A stretch of DNA of 64,000 bases, from the sequence record NC_018859.1; one strand, given 5' to 3'. This DNA comes from Escherichia phage ECBP2. Positions 2,060-54,370 of this stretch are shown piece after piece (the stretch's first letter is position 1; every line of letters starts with the position of its first letter). A model generated the notes under the pieces. That model saw only the letters and a list, made by a program, of their open reading frames with translations, searched no databases and was not told where the DNA came from. A program made the translations under genes and the position numbers.

Positions 2060-2551
2060 ATGGATAATGTCGCATTGCCACCGATACAACTGAGCTTAAG
2101 CCCAGAAGGGATGGAATTCATCATGAAGCATGAAGGTATGAGAACTCGTGCTTACCAAGATTCCGCAGGTATCTGGACGATATGTGTTGGGGCTACGCGC
2201 GATATGAATGGGTATCCAGTTAGACAGGGATTAACGTATTCTATAGAGGATTGTCTAGCTCTGCTAGATAGAGACACACAAGACTCTGTTCGTGCCACTC
2301 AGAAAAATATTAGGGTTCCTTTGCTAACCCACGAGTTTGATGCTCTCACCTCTTTCAATTTTAATGTAGGAGGAACAGCTCTATCAACTTCTAAGCTAAG
2401 GAAAGTGATCAACGGAGATGCTAAGGGTGATGTTTACTCAGAGTTCTTACGTTGGGATAAGATAACAGTCAGAGGTGTAAAACAACAGAGTCCGGGACTT
2501 CACAACCGAAGAGTTGCAGAAGCAGACCTATACACCATAGGTAAATATTAA
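2060..2551 (+). CDS. endolysin, GH24 lysozyme (muramidase)
   Basis: GMEFIMKHEGMRTRAYQDSAGIWTICVGAT matches the catalytic E...D...T region of T4/P22-type phage lysozymes; GGAGG RBS; no signal peptide. Confidence 0.85.
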   Translation: MDNVALPPIQLSLSPEGMEFIMKHEGMRTRAYQDSAGIWTICVGATRDMNGYPVRQGLTYSIEDCLALLDRDTQDSVRATQKNIRVPLLTHEFDALTSFNFNVGGTALSTSKLRKVINGDAKGDVYSEFLRWDKITVRGVKQQSPGLHNRRVAEADLYTIGKY

Positions 2552-2563
2552 TGGAGGTGCCTT

Positions 2564-3367
2564 TTGGCTATTGAAACTACAGCGGTAGTAACTACCGATT
2601 TAAATCCCCTGTACCCTCGTGACAGGGACTACATCTACGAAGGGGCGGCTCAACTCCGCCTCATTAAACAAGTGTTGATTAATACATTCCCTAATATCAC
2701 TGAACCAGTGAACCTGTCCTCTGAATCCTTTAAGGCTTTGTCAGAGAAGATCACATTTACTGGCGATGCAATGGATGTTGGTAATCTGATGATTAAGAAC
2801 CTAACTCCGGGTACAGGTGATAAAGATGCTGTAACCAAAGGTCAGATGGAAGCTTTCATGTTGAATTGGATGCAGAATAAACTTTATCGTATTGGTGCTT
2901 ACTATATCACTGAAGAAGATATCAACCCCGGTGATTCTAGCTCTCTCGGCTTTGGCTCTTGGGCTAAAGTTACTGGTGTTGTTATGGGTACTGGTGTTGT
3001 CAACCCCGATGGATCTGTTCCTAACGCCCAGCGTGTTGAGTTCCAAGCAGGCGGTACAGGTGGTCGTGTGTTCAATACAGTTCGTGCTGATAACATGCCT
3101 CTGACGACAATCAACGGTTCTAGTTTCCAAGTAAGTTCTTACTCTCACGCACACGGTATTACGATGGGTCGTGGTGATGCTAGTGGTCACAATAGCAACC
3201 CTAACTGGTATAGTCCGGGTGGTGGTTATACTCAGACAACTGATACAAATACTCACTCACACTCAATCTCTGGTTCTGTTAGTTTTGGTTATGATGATAT
3301 CTCTCGTCAGCCTATTAACACTTTACCACCGTTCCGAGCAGCACACATTTGGAGACGTATTAGCTAA
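2564..3367 (+). CDS. tail fibre-like protein (fibre N-terminal adaptor motif)
   Basis: DKDAVTKGQMEAFMLNW resembles the conserved DAVxxGQL motif of podovirus tail fibres (T7 gp17 N-terminal region); Gly/Ser/Thr-rich C-terminus. Confidence 0.5.
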   Translation: MAIETTAVVTTDLNPLYPRDRDYIYEGAAQLRLIKQVLINTFPNITEPVNLSSESFKALSEKITFTGDAMDVGNLMIKNLTPGTGDKDAVTKGQMEAFMLNWMQNKLYRIGAYYITEEDINPGDSSSLGFGSWAKVTGVVMGTGVVNPDGSVPNAQRVEFQAGGTGGRVFNTVRADNMPLTTINGSSFQVSSYSHAHGITMGRGDASGHNSNPNWYSPGGGYTQTTDTNTHSHSISGSVSFGYDDISRQPINTLPPFRAAHIWRRIS

Positions 3368-3376
3368 GGAGGTAGC

Positions 3377-6300
3377 ATGGCTCTCTATCCGATTAAATCA
3401 TTAGGCGCAGTTGGGGTTATCGCTGACCAAGCACCTACTGACTTAGCACCAAATGCTTTCACTAACGCTATTAATGCTCGGTTTGTTGAGCAGAGAGTCT
3501 TTAAGACGGGGGGTAATGCCCCTCTTTCTTATGTAGACGAAGATAAAGATCTGACTCCTCTCTCGTTCCTTTCAATGCCTTTCGATTATTATAGCGCAGG
3601 TACTAGCTTCCTTGTGGTAGGTACAGATAAGAAACTGTATAAACTTACCGATGAAAGTTTAACTGATATCAGCCGTAAGGTTGCTACAGCTACGAAGAAA
3701 GCATCAGCGACAATTAAGATTTATCCAGTGGTCTCTAGTATTTCCCCTAAAGAGACTTCTGTATCCATGAACTTTAACCAGACCAAGATTCTTGAAGTTG
3801 AAGTTAAACCAGTAGATGCACAGAATGCTAACCTAGTTTGGGAAGTGAGTAACTCTTCTTATGGTAGTATCGAGGTTGACCCTACTGATTCTAAGAAAGC
3901 TACACTGACTTCTAAATCAGTTGAAGGTAATCTAGTTGTTACGGTCAGTACAGCTGACGATTCTATCTCAGCTCAGATTGCAGTTAACATCATCGATGGT
4001 GATTCTGGTATTTATCTGAGTCAAGATACACTGACTATGCGTAAAGGTGGTACTTCTACTCTTACAGCTATCACAGGTAAACCTTCTGTAACTTGGACTT
4101 CTTCTAACCCATCTTTGATTTCGGTTTCTCCTAATGCTAACACTAAGACGGTTGTTCTTACAGCTCTTGGAGAAGGACAGGCAACTATCACCGCTGACAA
4201 TGGGACAAAGACTGCATCTTGTGTAGTAACAGCGATTCCTCAGATTGATAGTATCTCATTAAGCCAGACAGATGTTCAAATGAGTCGTGGTACTCAGTAT
4301 ATCTTGACAGCAACTGTTAGCCCAGCTAATGCTCCTAACCAAGCAATCACTTGGACTTCTTCTAATACCAATATTGCTACAGTAAGTGGTACAGGTACAG
4401 AAGCTACCATCACTGGTTTGCTTGCAGGTTATACGGAGATTACAGCAGTGACAGCAGAGGGAAGTCGTTCAGCAGTTTGTACTGTTCGAGTTGACCTATC
4501 CTCTCGTTTGGCAAGTAGGGCTATGTCAGCAATGGCTATCACTACAGAAGCTCCTGTAGAAGAACCGGTTGTTGAGTCAGAAGAAGTTACTTATTTTGAC
4601 ACTGATACAATTGGTATTGATACGTCAGGGATGTCAGAAGGGAATAACTTCTACGACTACTCCAACGTTATGGACTTGGAAGGATTTGGTAGAGCAGCAA
4701 TGCTTGCTAATGATCCTCCTCTCACTGGAGTTACTCTTGATGTTATTGATGCTTCTCTTGATGTAGGTGAAGAAATTGTTATCACAGCTACAGCATCTCC
4801 TACTGGAAGTTACACTTACAAGTGGACGGTTGATAAGAGTGGTTATGTTTCTACTACCTCTACAACTAACCCTACTTTGAAACTTACTGCTATTCGTAAG
4901 GGTGAGATTAAGGTGACTTGTACTGTAAGCCAGATGGTCCAGAAAGACTATGATGCGTTTGAAGATTATCCTTGGTATCATGCGATCATCTCTAACTGTG
5001 CAGTAGCAACTACTCACTACGAAACTCCTCAGGTTAAGGAATTCGATTCTGAATACTTCACTGATCTTCCGGGATGGGGTGAACAGACAGTTGTTGATGC
5101 AGATGGCAACCCTTCTGTTAAGAAGTATAACTGGAAGTGTGAACGAGTAAGGGCTTTTAATAATAGGTTGTTTGCTCTGAATATGAGAGAGTCTAACGCT
5201 TCTGGTGTTACTACTCATTATCCTCTTCGTTTACGTTGGTCTAACTTTGCAGAGGAAAACAAGGCTCCTGAGCTTTGGGATGATTATGCATACGACCGAG
5301 CAGTAACTTCTGACCTAGCAGCTAACATCGTAGGACAGACAGAAGCTCTTGAGAATGGTTACGCAGGGTATATTGACTTGGCTGACTCTAACGGTAGTTT
5401 GTTAGATGTTCTTCCTCTGAAAGATTACCTGTTCGTGTATACTGAGTTTGAAACCTACATTGGTTCTCCTACTAACAACACCTATCAGCCTTTGATGTTT
5501 AAGAAGCTGTTTAACGATTCAGGTATCCTTGCTCCTGAATGTGTGGTGGAAGTTGAGGGTGGTCACTTTGTAGTAACTCAGAACGACGTCATTCTACATA
5601 ATGGTGCTTCTAAGAAATCTATTGCTTCTAACCGAGTGAAGAACATGCTCATTAATGAGATTTGTCTGGTGAACCCAATTGCTACACGAGTTCATCTTCA
5701 TCAGGATAAGAAAGAAGTGTGGGTTCTTTATGTAGGTCCGGGTGAACCTAAAGAAAGTTTTGCTTGTACTAAGGCAGCTGTATGGAACTACGAGTTTGAT
5801 ACTTGGTCTTTCCGTACGATTCCTTACTCTTACTGTATCGGTCTGGTTGATCCTCCTGTTCTGGAACGTGGTCCTATCTGGGCTGATTTCCAAGAGATCA
5901 CTTGGGATGACCCTTCGATTGACAAACTGGTGTGGAGAAAAGATGCAACTAACTTCCGTCAGCGAGTTACAATCATAGGTTCTTTCTTGAAAGGATTTTA
6001 CCAAGTTGATATAGGAGCTTTGGATTATATCTATGACAGAACAAATGATGTGGTTATAGAGAAGCCTCTGGAAATGAGACTAGAGAGAACGGGGATTGAT
6101 TTTGATAACGTCACTAATGAATGGAATCAGAAACACATTAACCGATTTAGACCTCAAGTAACAGGAACAGGGACTTATACTTTTGAAGCAGGTGGTAGTC
6201 AATTCTCTAATGAGTATGGACACAACCACTCTACTAAAGAGTTTAGGGTTGGTGTAGATCGTCACGTAGCAGTCAGACTGAACCATCCATACCTATTCTA

Positions 6301-25627: not shown

Positions 25628-25939
25628 CTACTTCTCCACCACAAAGAGGTTAACTTCAATGAAAGTTTCGTATTGTGTTGACTCCTGCTTACGGGTGTAG
25701 TAGAAATGACGACCTTCTAATGCACCTCCGTACTGAGTGGCACATCTTTTAACCATCTCTTTTATCACATCTATAACTGATACGCCTTTCCACGGACGTA
25801 ACCCATGAGTAGGAATTTCTGCTGTGCAGGTTACTTGTGTATAACCTACATCTTGTAGAGGTGTCTCAAGAATCAGCTTTGCCCAAGCATCAAAATTAAG
25901 CTTGGGGTTATATTTAACTTCAGTTTTGATATCAATCAT
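25628..25939 (-). CDS. hypothetical protein
   Basis: 103-aa ORF; its ATG overlaps the stop of polymerase exon 2. Confidence 0.45.
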   Translation of the reverse strand: MIDIKTEVKYNPKLNFDAWAKLILETPLQDVGYTQVTCTAEIPTHGLRPWKGVSVIDVIKEMVKRCATQYGGALEGRHFYYTRKQESTQYETFIEVNLFVVEK

Positions 25940-26094
25940 TAGTGAGTATGATTCCAGTTTAATCCAATCTTACAATCAGATGCAAGAGGACATTCCATCT
26001 TGAGATATTCCCCTGCTTTACGGACACACTCTTCAGTGAGAGTGCGCAGAATATTAACATCATCACGATGTACAGTGAACTGGCCTTCATCCAT
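25939..26094 (-). CDS. DNA polymerase (family A, T7-like), exon 2
   Basis: Translates to DEGQFTVHRDDVNILRTLTEECVRKAGEYLKMECPLASDCKIGLNWNHTH*, matching the C-terminus of T7 DNA polymerase; joining to exon 1 restores motif C as ...VIDMH|DEGQF. Confidence 0.6.
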   Translation of the reverse strand: MDEGQFTVHRDDVNILRTLTEECVRKAGEYLKMECPLASDCKIGLNWNHTH

Positions 26095-26698
26095 TCAGTT
26101 ATTCCCAAATTACTTCGGGTGTCGGACTATATCATAACAGCATAGCTAATTTGCTGTTGTTGGCGCTTCGAGGGTTTCCCTGTTAACCCCCTACTCCCTT
26201 AGGATAGTCTCTACACTTTCCACTTCCGAATCCATCTACAACCGATTCCGAAGCTCACACCAAACTTCTCTGCAAGATGTACACCAGAGCATTCTGTTTC
26301 TAGCCAATAGAGCCTTGCAGCCTCTTGCCTATCTCCATTTCTTCCAGTGTTTGATTCTATTGCATGTTCTGAACCTTCAAGCATTTCTAAGTGCTCAAGA
26401 TTGGAACAAGCTCTATTCTTGCATTTGTGATTTATTTCATAACCGTCAGGAATAGAACCAAAAGATTCTTCCCAAACATGCCTGTGATACATGACCCATT
26501 TGCCATCTATTACTTTTCTGAAATAACCATTTTTATTAAGTTTGTGTGAGATAGGGATGATACACCCTGTTTCGGTTGTTTCCAAAACAAGAGTTTTCTT
26601 AGCCATATCATCTCCTAATAGCTTAGCTCGGTATTGCCCTCAACTTAATGGTAGGGTTTCACCGAGTTCACCAACTTTTACATGCACAATGAAAGTTT
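26095..26698 (-). mobile_element. putative group I intron (604 nt) carrying an HNH endonuclease ORF
   Basis: Interrupts the polymerase at motif C; 5' exon ends in U (CAU) and intervening sequence ends in G; contains a free-standing ORF with its own start; stops in the polymerase frame. Confidence 0.5.
26211..26606 (-). CDS. HNH homing endonuclease (intron-encoded)
   Basis: YEINHKCKNRACSNLEHLE: HNH motif; lies entirely within the polymerase intervening sequence. Confidence 0.65.
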   Translation of the reverse strand: MAKKTLVLETTETGCIIPISHKLNKNGYFRKVIDGKWVMYHRHVWEESFGSIPDGYEINHKCKNRACSNLEHLEMLEGSEHAIESNTGRNGDRQEAARLYWLETECSGVHLAEKFGVSFGIGCRWIRKWKV

Positions 26699-28393
26699 AT
26701 GCATGTCGATAACCTTCGCACAACGAACACCATCACGCTCAATCCATTTATTGAGGAATAGCATTGCATACTTCATAACAATCGCCCCAGCGCTCTGTAA
26801 GAGCGTATTTAAGGCTTTATGGACCATAACCTTTCCAGTTGCATCTCTTCTCATTGTAATACGACGTCCATCCACACCGTAGATGTATCCACTTTGTGCT
26901 TTCTCGGTCATACGTTCAATAAGGATTGCAATACAAGGATTCTCTGCTAAGAATCTTGCTCTCATAATAGCCCCTTCGTCAGAGCCACCACCTACGATAC
27001 TTCCTAGTTTAGCGTCACCTGCCCCATAGTTAAAGGCATATATAAACGTCTTAGCGTTATCGCGAGTAGGAAGACCAGCAAGTTTTTGGTTATGTGAGTG
27101 AATATCTCCTTCTAAAAGAATATCTCTGTACATAACAGCAGAAGCTAGACCACGTTCAGCTTCTCGTTTCTTAGCTGGGTTGTTTTCTCGCTCTGCTTCA
27201 GCGAGCATCTCACGACATTCTTTAATAAGGTAGTGAGCTAGCATCCTCAGCTCAAGACCAGAGCCATCGTAACCTAAGAAGATTTCACGACCAGCAGGTA
27301 CATAGAACTTATAGGCACCTACAGGTTTGTCTTTCTTGCCCGGTTTTCCCACTTCGTAGATAATGTTAGTACCTTTTCGTACGTAACACCCATCAGGGAT
27401 ATGGTTGGTAATGATGAAAGGATAGTTATGACTATCGTCTGAGGAATAGTCAGATTGAAAAAGACTGCGGCACTCGTGACCAAACAAACCGCGAGAAGGA
27501 ATATTAACAACAATACGGTGTTTAAAACGAAATGTCGGAGTAGCGCAGCTATTAGCTTCGGCGGACAACTTACCATCTTCTCGTTCCTTGTCTATAAGAC
27601 CATTAATCAAGCCAAGCCTGTGAGCCGCTACAACACGTCTCTTAAGCAAACCTCCCACACCCCCTAGCTCACCCCCAAGACCTTCTTCAAGCGTCTCCTC
27701 GAGGTTTGTAGGAGCTGTAGGCCACTTGTTTGACATGGCTAAAGCTTTCTTAATTTCATCAAAGGTTACAGGCTTCTTCCTGTTCGGATTCAAGCCTAAA
27801 CCACTGACGTAGGCTTTCATGTAGTTGACAGTGTGATAACGGAAGTGTTTATCCAAGAACCGACGAATGTCAGCATCAATCATCTCAGCTGTCTGTTTTT
27901 CTTTAGCGTTTCCTCGCATCCAAGCAGAATACCAAGCAGCATATGTGCCATACTTCTTCATCGCTTTACGGATTTCGTAAGTATTCCAAGGTTTCTTGGA
28001 TGTGTTCCACTCTGGAGGAATGAAGCCTTCATCCATCAAGGCTTCTTTGATACGTGCATCTTTCGATGGGTCGAAGTCTACATACTCAACGCAAGTAAAC
28101 GCCCCACCGATATCTTCTCTTTTAAGACCAACTCTGTCACAATAAAGCTGAGGCCACTTCTGTAAAGCACCTGACTTCTTAAAAGGTTTCGAATAAGTTG
28201 AACCATCCACCCGCATTTTGGGGAGGAGAGGAATCAGTTCTTTATCAATATTGACAATAATCTCTTTGAGAAGGTGAACAAACCACCGAGCGTTTCTTCT
28301 GTGGAAGTTGACGCCATGCTTCGCCTGCTTTGAGATTATATCAGCGACTGTCATCTCCGTTATGAAAGGTAACTTATCAGGGTTATCCATCAC
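26699..28393 (-). CDS. DNA polymerase (family A, T7-like) polymerase domain, exon 1
   Basis: DGSGLELRMLAHY (motif A), RDNAKTFIYAFNYGAG (motif B), LNTLLQSAGAIVMKYAM; no exonuclease domain; the track ORF runs into a 6-codon tail and stop inside the intron. Confidence 0.85.
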
Positions 28394-29274: not shown

Positions 29275-29295
29275 ATTTATTACCTTAGGTTACAT

Positions 29296-29326
29296 AAAAG
29301 AAAAGGCCACCCGAAATGGGTAGCCT
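29296..29326 (-). terminator. rho-independent terminator
   Basis: GGCTACCC-ATTTCG-GGTGGCC hairpin + U-run on the - strand. Confidence 0.5.
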
Positions 29327-29330
29327 TATA

Positions 29331-54294: not shown

Positions 54295-54370
54295 TGGTGC
54301 ACCCTACAGGATTCGAACCTGTAACCAACGACTTAGAAGGTCGCTGCTCTATCCATTGAGCTAAGGGTGC
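54295..54370 (-). tRNA. tRNA-Arg (anticodon UCU), CCA encoded
   Basis: GCACCCTTAGCTCAATGGATAGAGCAGCGACCTTCTAAGTCGTTGGTTACAGGTTCGAATCCTGTAGGGTGCACCA folds as a cloverleaf: 7-bp acceptor, GCTC/GAGC D-stem, anticodon loop CUUCUAA, T-arm ACAGG-TTCGAAT-CCTGT. Confidence 0.85.

What the first reader, a model, noticed from the sequence alone, without database searches (positions are those of the whole stretch)
25939..28393. DNA polymerase gene interrupted at motif C by a putative group I intron carrying an HNH endonuclease
The polymerase ORF ends ...AKVIDMH followed by six junk codons and a stop. About 600 nt downstream an in-frame segment encodes DEGQF...CKIGLNWNHTH*, which matches the extreme C-terminus of T7-type polymerases and restores the HDE of motif C when joined. 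The intervening 604 nt contains a complete HNH ORF and has the group I boundary bases (5' exon ends U, intervening sequence ends G).
Basis: partly seen in the sequence, partly recalled or inferred. Interest (0 to 1): 0.6.

Follow-up and report, generated by a model that had tools for sequence, protein, structure and literature searches.

The report
Self-splicing intron in phage polymerase gene
The DNA polymerase gene of this E. coli phage is interrupted, in the middle of its catalytic His-Asp-Glu motif, by a 607-base mobile group I intron that carries its own HNH endonuclease gene. The intron belongs to a family already shown to self-splice in T7-like phages, so the finding is real but of a known kind.

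Summary

**What is there (minus strand)**
- Family-A DNA polymerase exon 1: 28390..26699.
- Intervening sequence: 26698..26092, which is 607 nt, not 604.
- Exon 2: 26091..25939.
- An intron-less relative (Bas88, 94% identical) fixes the junction without ambiguity at CAT|GAT, the H|DE of motif C. The joined product is collinear with the Bas88 polymerase.

**Why it is a group I intron**
- The insert has the full group IA2 anatomy. One guide sequence pairs with both exon ends: P1 has U·G at the 5' splice site, and P10 lies directly next to it.
- P3 to P9 are present, with P7.1-GUA-P7.2, and the last intron base is G.
- A 131-aa HNH_3 ORF loops out of P6.
- Across 24 homologues, 94% of cells pair, against 34-47% in slid controls. 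24 of 57 pairs show compensatory changes.

**Relation to known introns**
- The insert is about 66% identical in DNA, and 55-62% in the HNH protein, to introns at the same codon in T7-like phages. Phages 13a and K1F annotate theirs as spliced.
- That site is the one published for the self-splicing phiI/W31 intron.
- The host polymerases share only 29% amino-acid identity.

**Status**
Only about 7 of roughly 90 related Gordonclarkvirinae genomes carry the intron. Their records annotate three separate genes. Splicing and homing were not tested here. This is a new member of a known kind.

The parts
26699..28390 (-). DNA polymerase exon 1. The ATG is at 28390 and an alternative GTG at 28393. The exon ends ...GAC AUG CAU, the His of motif C.
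   Evidence: ORF list; collinear with the Bas88 polymerase; the spliced product matches Pfam DNA_pol_A.
26092..26698 (-). Group I (IA2) intron, 607 nt. It begins AAACUUUCAUUGUGCAUGU and ends ...AACUGAAUG; the terminal G is at 26092.
   Evidence: Exact gap relative to intron-less Bas88; full-length Rfam Intron_gpI alignment 26708..26103; about 66% nt identity to T7-like polymerase introns; covariation.
25939..26091 (-). DNA polymerase exon 2 (GAU GAA GGC ... CAC UAA), encoding DEGQF...NWNHTH*.
   Evidence: Public records of relatives annotate it as a separate 51-aa CDS that starts at the AUG formed by the last 3 intron bases.
26680..26706 (-). P1 hairpin. The exon strand ACAUGCAU (26706..26699) pairs with the intron guide strand GUGCAUGU (26687..26680), with U·G at the 5' splice site. 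The exon-1 reading frame stops at UAA, 26680..26678.
   Evidence: Sequence; predicted in the minimum-energy fold, z = -3.7; exon and guide strand co-vary between phage families (helix 1).
26688..26693 (-). P10 strand of the guide sequence, UUCAUU. It pairs with the first six bases of exon 2, GAUGAA (26091..26086).
   Evidence: Sequence; 92% of cells paired and 2 pairs with compensatory changes (helix 2).
26621..26675 (-). 5' core: P3 5' strand GUUGGUG, P4 CUCGGU/ACCGAG, P5 CCCU/AGGG with a lineage-specific extension, and P6 5' strand CU.
   Evidence: covariation helices 3-6.
26211..26606 (-). Intron-encoded HNH homing endonuclease ORF, 131 aa, looped out of P6. The RBS AGGAG lies 5 nt upstream. 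The stop UAG (26213..26211) lies in J6/7, and the last codons overlap the P6 3' strand.
   Evidence: Pfam HNH_3, E 2e-13; PHROG 6254 HNH endonuclease, E 8.5e-43; 55-62% identical to HNH ORFs of T7-like polymerase introns.
26104..26217 (-). 3' core: P6' AG, J6/7 GUAGA, P7 GACUAU/AUAGUC, P7.1 CC-UAAG-GG, GUA linker, P7.2 GGGGG(UU)/(AA)CCCUC, P3' CGCCAAC, P8 AACAG(CA)/(UG)CUGUU, and P9 CCCGAA-GUAA-UUUGGG.
   Evidence: covariation helices 3 and 7-11.

Best explanation
The insert is a mobile, self-splicing group I intron of subgroup IA2. It interrupts the phage's family-A DNA polymerase gene between the His and Asp codons of motif C (H|DE, Pol I site 881).

**Splicing (inferred).** In the pre-mRNA, one internal guide sequence (5'-UUCAUU GUGCAUGU-3') holds both exon ends. 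GUGCAUGU pairs with the exon-1 end ACAUGCAU (P1, with U·G at the cleavage site). UUCAUU pairs with the exon-2 start GAUGAA (P10). The folded P3-P9 core binds free guanosine at P7, and that guanosine attacks after the U at 26699. The freed exon-1 3'-OH then attacks after the terminal G at 26092. This ligates ...CAU|GAU... and restores a 614-aa polymerase with an intact catalytic Asp-Glu. Ribosomes reading exon 1 stop six codons into the intron, before the core.

**Mobility (inferred).** The 131-aa HNH endonuclease is translated from its own RBS inside the P6 loop. In mixed infections it should cut or nick intron-less polymerase alleles near the conserved TGCAT|GAYGAR site, so that repair copies the intron in (homing).

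**Shown here:** the exact boundaries, the anatomy, covariation, homology to the T7-like polymerase intron family, and a patchy, incongruent distribution.

**Inferred only:** catalysis of splicing, endonuclease activity and homing.
For: - **Boundaries.** Comparison with the intron-less allele fixes them to the base, and the reading frame is restored.
- **Helices in the window.** All are intact: P1 8/8, P10 6/6, P3 7/7, P4 6/6, P5 4/4, P6 2/2, P7 6/6, P7.2 5/5, P8 5/5 and P9 6/6 with a GUAA loop. P1, P4, P5, P7.2, P8 and P9 are also recovered by thermodynamic folding.
- **Covariation in 24 homologues.** 94.4% of cells pair, against 34-47% with slid partners. 24 of 57 pairs have double (compensatory) changes. 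The covariation score is 0.334, against at most 0.096 for slid partners and 0 of 500 shuffles.
- **Guide sequence tracks the exons.** It co-varies with the different exon sequences of Kuravirus-like, T7-like and Vibrio phages.
- **Rfam.** Intron_gpI gives a full-length hit on exactly this interval, E 4.6e-4. An ORF-less 225-nt homologue at the same codon scores 61.2 bits, above the gathering score of 50.
- **Sequence homology.** About 66% nt identity over the whole intron to introns at the same codon in 13a and K1F, where the CDS is annotated as joined. The HNH protein is 55-62% identical, while the host polymerases share only 29% identity.
- **Published precedent.** The phiI/W31 introns at site 881 are IA2, carry an HNH ORF in P6a, and splice in vivo and in vitro (cited in PMC3428280).
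- **Mobility signal.** Only about 9 of 97 related records carry the intron. The PAS59 intron is 92% identical to that of 1-6af, yet their exons are 79% identical.
Against: - There are no RNA or activity data for this phage.
- The Rfam score for the window copy (27.2 bits) is below the gathering score of 50. The same is true of the annotated 13a intron (37.9 bits), and the 394-nt ORF interrupting the model explains both.
- I built the covariation alignment by anchoring on conserved single-stranded motifs. It is not a blind alignment.
- Many of the sequences are related, so the shuffle control overstates significance.
- P7, P7.1 and most of P4 are invariant and so carry no information about pairing.
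- The phiI/W31 sequences themselves were not available for direct comparison.
Confidence: 0.93

Rival explanations
1. A free-standing HNH homing-endonuclease gene has inserted into the polymerase gene. The polymerase is then made as two separate polypeptides (571 aa and 51 aa) that work together without RNA splicing. This is how the public records of SU7, PAS59 and PE006 annotate the locus.
For: An AUG, formed by the last three intron bases, lies in frame directly before exon 2. The SU7 annotators marked an RBS upstream of it. Genes split by free-standing endonuclease genes do exist in other phages (general knowledge).
Against: - It does not explain about 210 nt of non-coding flanks that fold into a covarying group I core.
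- It does not explain a guide sequence complementary to both exon ends.
- It does not explain ORF-less 225-nt homologues at the same codon (L050 and L026), which have no endonuclease to insert.
- T7-like homologues end in AAAG, not AUG, so they offer no start codon for exon 2.
- The split would separate His from Asp-Glu within one catalytic motif.
Confidence: 0.03
2. The insert is a decayed group I intron that no longer splices efficiently, so in this genome the polymerase gene is a pseudogene or depends on a helper.
For: Introns of this family do decay. L040 has a truncated HNH ORF, and L050 and L026 have lost the ORF altogether. The window copy has the lowest Rfam score in the family (27.2 bits).
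Against: - Every core helix is intact in the window.
- The HNH ORF is full length and 98.5% identical to that of the viable isolate SU7.
- The intron is 98.2% identical to the SU7 copy, more conserved than the flanking exons at 93-95%.
- Differences within the Kuravirus-like clade are compensatory: in P8, C-G in the window becomes U-A in L035.
- Propagating isolates (SU7, PAS59, 1-6af, PE006) carry the same element.
Confidence: 0.03
3. The insert is an intein or some other protein-level insertion, or an assembly artefact.
For: None beyond the fact that the polymerase is interrupted at a conserved catalytic site, which inteins also favour.
Against: - The exon-1 frame hits a stop after six codons.
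- The HNH ORF is in a different phase and has its own RBS.
- No Hint domain was found by Pfam.
- The same insert is present in many independently sequenced genomes.
Confidence: 0.005

Closest known systems
Group IA2 intron in gene 5 (DNA polymerase) of T7-like phages phiI and W31, encoding the HNH endonuclease I-TslI (Bonocora & Shub 2004, J Bacteriol 186:8153; Bonocora & Shub 2009, Curr Biol 19:223). The same element is annotated as a joined CDS in phages 13a and K1F.
   Same: - Same insertion point, after the His codon of motif C (Pol I site 881; PMC3428280).
- Same subgroup architecture: no P2, P7.1-GUA-P7.2, and the ORF in the P6/P6a loop.
- About 66% nt identity over the full length to the 13a, K1F and VSG32 copies.
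- HNH protein of the same length (131 aa) and 55-62% identical.
- Same P7, J6/7 and J8/7 sequences.
   Different: - The host is a Gordonclarkvirinae (phiEco32-like) podovirus of about 77 kb whose polymerase is only 29% identical to T7-type polymerases.
- The guide sequence is re-tuned to the different exon: GUGCAUGU pairing with ACAUGCAU, instead of GUGCAC pairing with GUGCAU.
- P5 is 9 nt longer, P7.2 is shorter and P8 is longer.
- The intron ends AUG rather than AAG, creating a spurious start codon for exon 2.
- Splicing and homing are untested here.
HNH-encoding group I introns in the DNA polymerase genes of Bacillus phages SPO1, SP82 and Bastille (I-HmuI, I-HmuII, I-BasI) and cyanophage Pf-WMP3 (I-PfoP3I).
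   Same: They are group I introns with HNH endonuclease ORFs inside family-A polymerase genes of lytic phages. Pf-WMP3 is also IA2 with the ORF in P6a (PMC3428280).
   Different: They use a different insertion site (Pol I site 674, in the fingers) and are not detectably similar in DNA. The window HNH has no sequence-level match to any solved structure, I-HmuI included.
T3 gene 5.3, a free-standing HNH homing endonuclease next to an intron-less polymerase gene (Bonocora & Shub 2009; recalled from memory, paper not held).
   Same: It belongs to the same HNH protein family. One K1F record labels the intronic ORF 'gp5.3' (H76). It is reported to cut polymerase genes at the same position as I-TslI.
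   Different: It is free-standing, not embedded in a ribozyme.

Membership tests
Group I intron (Rfam RF00028) | P1 helix between the 5' exon end and an internal guide sequence, with U·G at the 5' splice site. | tested here: met
   Exon ACAUGCAU pairs with intron GUGCAUGU, 8 bp with a terminal U·G. U·G is present in 24 of 24 homologues, and 3 pairs have compensatory exon/guide changes.
Group I intron (Rfam RF00028) | Terminal G at the 3' end, and P10 pairing of the 3' exon with the guide sequence adjacent to P1. | tested here: met
   The intron ends ...AAUG. Exon 2 GAUGAA pairs with UUCAUU, directly 5' of the P1 strand. 92% of cells are paired across homologues.
Group I intron (Rfam RF00028) | Conserved catalytic core P3-P8, including the P3/P7 pseudoknot, supported by covariation. 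| tested here: met
   All helices are present in the window. P3 has compensatory changes in 6 of 7 pairs, P8 in 4 of 5 and P9 in 4 of 6. P7 is invariant. Overall 94.4% paired against 34-47% for slid partners.
Group I intron (Rfam RF00028) | Score at or above Rfam's gathering threshold of 50 bits. | tested here: inconclusive
   The window scores 27.2 bits, E 4.6e-4, as a full-length alignment. The annotated 13a intron scores 37.9, also below 50. ORF-less homologues at the same site score 61.2 (L050) and 47.9 (L026). The internal ORF depresses the score.
Group I intron (Rfam RF00028) | Guanosine-dependent self-splicing. | not testable with these tools
   This needs RT-PCR or in vitro transcription with GTP labelling.
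Subgroup IA2 | Extra helices P7.1 and P7.2 between P7 and P3', joined by G-U-A (criterion as quoted in PMC3428280). | tested here: met
   The sequence reads GACUAU-CC UAAG GG-A GUA-GGGGG...CCCUC-GAAG-CGCCAAC. The outer pairs of P7.2 co-vary (helix 9).
phiI/W31-type polymerase intron (Bonocora & Shub 2004) | Insertion at Pol I site 881, after the His of motif C. | tested here: met
   The junction is IDMH|DEGQ. It is the same H|DE junction in all 24 homologues. Site 881 for phiI/W31 is stated in PMC3428280.
phiI/W31-type polymerase intron (Bonocora & Shub 2004) | Sequence homology to the phiI/W31 introns (AY769989, AY769990). | not testable with these tools
   Those partial records are not in the collections. 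Homology was shown instead to introns at the same site in other T7-like phages (13a, K1F, VSG32, WX2): about 66% over 98% of the length.
HNH homing endonuclease (I-TslI / T3 gp5.3 type) | HNH catalytic domain. | tested here: met
   Pfam HNH_3, E 2.1e-13, 50.1 bits against a cut-off of 24.8. PHROG 6254, E 8.5e-43.
HNH homing endonuclease (I-TslI / T3 gp5.3 type) | Cleaves or nicks the intron-less allele and drives homing. | not testable with these tools
   The evidence is indirect only: sporadic presence (about 9 of 97 records) and incongruence between intron and exon similarity in PAS59.
Intein | In-frame insertion without stop codons, containing a Hint splicing domain. | tested here: not met
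   There is a stop codon six codons into the insert, and no Hint domain.

The most novel reading that the evidence does not exclude
One intron-plus-endonuclease lineage has jumped between at least three unrelated phage groups: T7-like Autographiviridae, phiEco32-like Gordonclarkvirinae and Vibrio Grimontviridae. It could do so because all their family-A polymerases share the roughly 11-bp core TGCAT|GAYGAR that encodes the catalytic His-Asp-Glu. After each jump the guide sequence was re-tuned to the new exon. The endonuclease may also act as a weapon in phage-phage competition, by excluding markers of intron-less co-infecting Kuraviruses.
Probability: 0.6. Interest if true: 0.4.

Novelty: new member of a known kind. 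Interest (0 to 1): 0.3.

Why it matters
- **Annotation.** Several public genomes (SU7, PAS59, 1-6af, PE006 and relatives) list this polymerase as three unrelated genes. The correct annotation is one spliced polymerase CDS plus an intron-encoded endonuclease.
- **Host range of the intron family.** This extends the T7-type polymerase intron family to Gordonclarkvirinae, a different group of coliphages that are being developed for therapy. Searches of the held literature found no mention of an intron in this subfamily.
- **Cross-family transfer.** It is a clean natural example of a mobile intron crossing phage families at a catalytic-site codon, with compensatory changes in the guide sequence.
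- **Limits.** It does not open a new mechanism. A specialist in phage introns would find it expected.

Tried and rejected
- **PDB sequence search with the HNH protein.** No meaningful hit: the best was a T-cell receptor chain at E 0.16. There is therefore no sequence-level link to I-HmuI.
- **Reading the primary papers.** Bonocora & Shub 2004 and 2009 (PMC529087, PMC2856452) are not held. Their content is taken from citing papers and from memory, and is marked as such.
- **A 3-bp P6 (GCU/AGU).** Rejected. The outer position shows G·U, G-C and A·C but never A-U across lineages. P6 is therefore taken as 2 bp (CU/AG alternating with CC/GG), consistent with the P6-P6a layout of the ORF-less L050 copy.
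- **A local hairpin around the HNH start codon as P6**, as Rfam's alignment suggests. It forms in some lineages but not in 13a or PT2, so it was not adopted.
- **First regex parses.** They mis-assigned splice sites and P7.2/P8 in some sequences. This was fixed before counting.
- **Rfam gathering scan of the whole window.** It found only a tRNA. The intron appears only with the E-value threshold.
- **Literature searches** for an intron in phiEco32-like, Kuravirus or Gordonclarkvirinae phages found nothing relevant.
Full report
**1. The observation**

The feature lies on the minus strand.
- A 571-aa ORF (28393..26678; relatives start at the ATG at 28390) ends ...AKVIDMH-KLSLCM-stop.
- A 131-aa ORF lies at 26606..26211.
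- A 51-aa ORF (26094..25939) reads M-DEGQF...CKIGLNWNHTH-stop.
- The 131-aa ORF is a Pfam HNH_3 endonuclease (E 2e-13). The joined polymerase matches DNA_pol_A over residues 362-611.

The window is 95% identical to Escherichia phage vB_EcoP_SU7 (Gordonclarkvirinae, Suseptimavirus). It is 91-94% identical to many Kuravirus-like coliphages.

Most of those relatives lack the insert. Aligning the window with intron-less Bas88 leaves one clean gap: the flanks meet at ...GACATGCAT|GATGAAGG..., with no repeated base that could shift the junction. Removing it gives a 614-aa protein collinear with the Bas88 polymerase and restores IDMH|DEGQ.

**2. Anatomy**

Read as RNA, the insert has every part of a group I intron of subgroup IA2 (coordinates).
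- **Guide sequence.** 5'-UUCAUU-GUGCAUGU-3' (26693..26680). Its 3' part pairs with the last eight exon-1 bases, ACAUGCAU, with U·G at the splice site (P1). Its 5' part pairs with the first six exon-2 bases, GAUGAA (P10).
- **No P2.** AAAA joins P1 directly to P3.
- **5' core.** P3 GUUGGUG/CGCCAAC, P4 CUCGGU/ACCGAG, P5 CCCU/AGGG with an extension, and P6 CU/AG.
- **3' core.** P7 GACUAU/AUAGUC; P7.1 (CC-UAAG-GG), a GUA linker and P7.2 (GGGGGUU/AACCCUC) between P7 and P3'; P8 AACAGCA/UGCUGUU; and P9 CCCGAA/UUUGGG closed by a GUAA tetraloop.
- **3' end.** The last base is G.
- **HNH ORF.** It is looped out of P6, with AGGAG 5 nt upstream of its AUG. Its last codons overlap the P6 3' strand, and its UAG stop lies in J6/7 immediately before P7.
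- **Exon-1 frame.** It stops at UAA right after the P1 strand, so ribosomes do not enter the core.

Thermodynamic folding of the two natural halves recovers P1, P4 and P5 (z = -3.7), and also P7.2, P8 and P9.

**3. Related sequences**

The 607 nt alone match 58 phage records.
- About 9 are Gordonclarkvirinae records, at 84-98% identity: SU7, PAS59, 1-6af, 1-6bf, FH3, PE006 and pEC-N1203-2Af.1.
- At about 66% identity over nearly the full length, it matches inserts in the polymerase genes of T7-like phages (13a, K1F, VSG32, WX2, Sal_R1S and Aeromonas phage PT2).
- It also matches an insert in Vibrio phage Vp_R1 (Grimontviridae).
- In 13a and K1F the polymerase CDS is annotated as joined across the insert.
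- In every case the junction is H|DE.

A scan of IMG/VR with the P7-P7.1-GUA motif returned 50 loci. About 22 of them are in polymerase genes at this same codon. They include two ORF-less 225-nt copies (L050, L026) and one with a truncated HNH ORF (L040).

PMC3428280 states that the phiI and W31 introns of Bonocora & Shub (2004) lie at Pol I site 881, which is His881 of the HDE motif. It describes them as IA2 with the HNH ORF in P6a. From memory, the 2004 abstract reports efficient splicing in vivo and self-splicing in vitro, and the 2009 paper reports I-TslI-dependent homing. Neither paper could be opened.

**4. Structure test**

I aligned 24 distinct copies. The procedure anchored on conserved single-stranded motifs and justified each stem against its conserved flank, so it does not use pairing information.

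Results on this alignment:
- 94.4% of cells in the 57 proposed pairs are standard pairs, against 34-47% when the 3' partners are slid by 1 to 3 columns.
- 24 pairs show changes on both sides.
- The covariation score is 0.334, against at most 0.096 for slid partners. No shuffle out of 500 reached the observed value.
- Pairs with compensatory changes: P3 6 of 7, P8 4 of 5, P9 4 of 6, P7.2 3 of 5, P1 3 of 8, P10 2 of 6, P6 1 of 2.

The P1 and P10 changes are especially telling, because one strand is coding exon. T7-like exons GUGCAU pair with guide GUGCAC. The window's AUGCAU pairs with GUGCAU. Vp_R1's GAUGCAU pairs with GUGCAUC.

P7, P7.1 and most of P4 never vary and are uninformative.

Caveats: the alignment is mine, and the sequences are related, so the shuffle control is generous.

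**5. Covariance-model test**

- Rfam Intron_gpI aligns full-length to 26708..26103, at 27.2 bits and E 4.6e-4. That is below the gathering score of 50.
- The shortfall is a property of ORF-containing members. The annotated 13a intron scores 37.9, PT2 39.0 and Vp_R1 34.9.
- The ORF-less homologues score 61.2 (L050) and 47.9 (L026).

**6. Mobility**

- The host polymerases of the window and 13a share 29% amino-acid identity. The window and Vp_R1 share 49%.
- The introns nevertheless share about 66% nucleotide identity, and the HNH proteins 55-62%. This points to transfer between phage families, not common descent.
- Within Gordonclarkvirinae the intron is sporadic.
- PAS59's exons are 92-95% identical to those of the window and SU7, but its intron is only 84% identical to theirs. 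That intron is 92% identical to the introns of 1-6af and PE006, whose exons are 79% identical to PAS59's.
- The window and SU7 introns are 98.2% identical, more than their flanks (93-95%).
- These patterns fit homing. Endonuclease activity itself was not tested.

**7. Rivals**

- **Two-polypeptide polymerase split by a free-standing endonuclease gene** (the de facto public annotation). This cannot explain the covarying non-coding core, the guide sequence, the ORF-less copies, or the absence of an exon-2 start codon in the T7-like copies.
- **Decayed, non-splicing intron.** This is unlikely because all helices and the ORF are intact, and viable isolates carry the element.
- **Intein.** Excluded by the reading frames.

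**8. Novelty and score**

- The intron family, its site, its subgroup and its endonuclease type are known.
- Its presence in Gordonclarkvirinae is not annotated in the records examined. It was not mentioned in the SU7 genome paper, in the BASEL paper, which only notes 'homing endonuclease insertions', or in any other paper found.
- It is therefore a new member of a known kind.
- Its value lies in correcting annotation and in illustrating cross-family intron transfer with guide-sequence re-tuning.
- Interest 0.3. Confidence 0.93 that this is a functional group I intron carrying a homing endonuclease.

Noticed in passing
window 54295-54370 (-): A tRNA-Arg (anticodon TCT). It is the only Rfam gathering-level hit in the whole 64-kb window.
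   Followed up: no
window ~29294-29329 (-): A GC-rich hairpin followed by a U run (AAGGCUACCCAUUUCGGGUGGCCUUUUCUUU). It showed up as weak Phe_leader and ctRNA hits. It is probably an intrinsic terminator upstream of the polymerase gene cluster, and SU7 annotates a terminator at the equivalent position.
   Followed up: partly
L013 (KBNP1711) 2902-3642; also Bas89 (H28): Other Gordonclarkvirinae carry a different insertion with an 'endonuclease' ORF at another site of the same polymerase gene, around residue 455. Rfam Intron_gpI scores 48.1 and 34.7 bits there. This looks like a second group I intron site in this polymerase family. That site is empty in the window.
   Followed up: partly
L050 8689-8917 and 9330-9587; L007 (PT2) 1413-2049 and 2491-3114: Some T7-like polymerase genes carry two group I introns a few hundred bases apart. 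The downstream one in L050 is an ORF-less 225-nt homologue of the window intron.
   Followed up: partly
L040 (IMG/VR 3300045988_126022): A 419-nt copy of the intron at the same site has an internally deleted HNH ORF, leaving 57 aa. This looks like a snapshot of endonuclease-gene decay on the way to ORF-less introns.
   Followed up: no
L001 (SU7), L003 (PAS59), L008 (1-6af), L009 (PE006): Public records annotate the interrupted polymerase as three independent CDS. One of them is a 51-aa 'DNA polymerase' or hypothetical protein starting at the AUG formed by the last three intron bases. No intron or joined CDS is annotated.
   Followed up: yes
L015/L018/L047, L019/L060, L028/L042, L025/L031 and others: The motif GUAGAGACUAUCC-N3-6-GGAGUAGG (J6/7-P7-P7.1-GUA-P7.2) also marks IA2-type introns in other, unidentified phage genes in IMG/VR. 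Several of them have the ORF downstream of P9 rather than in P6.
   Followed up: no
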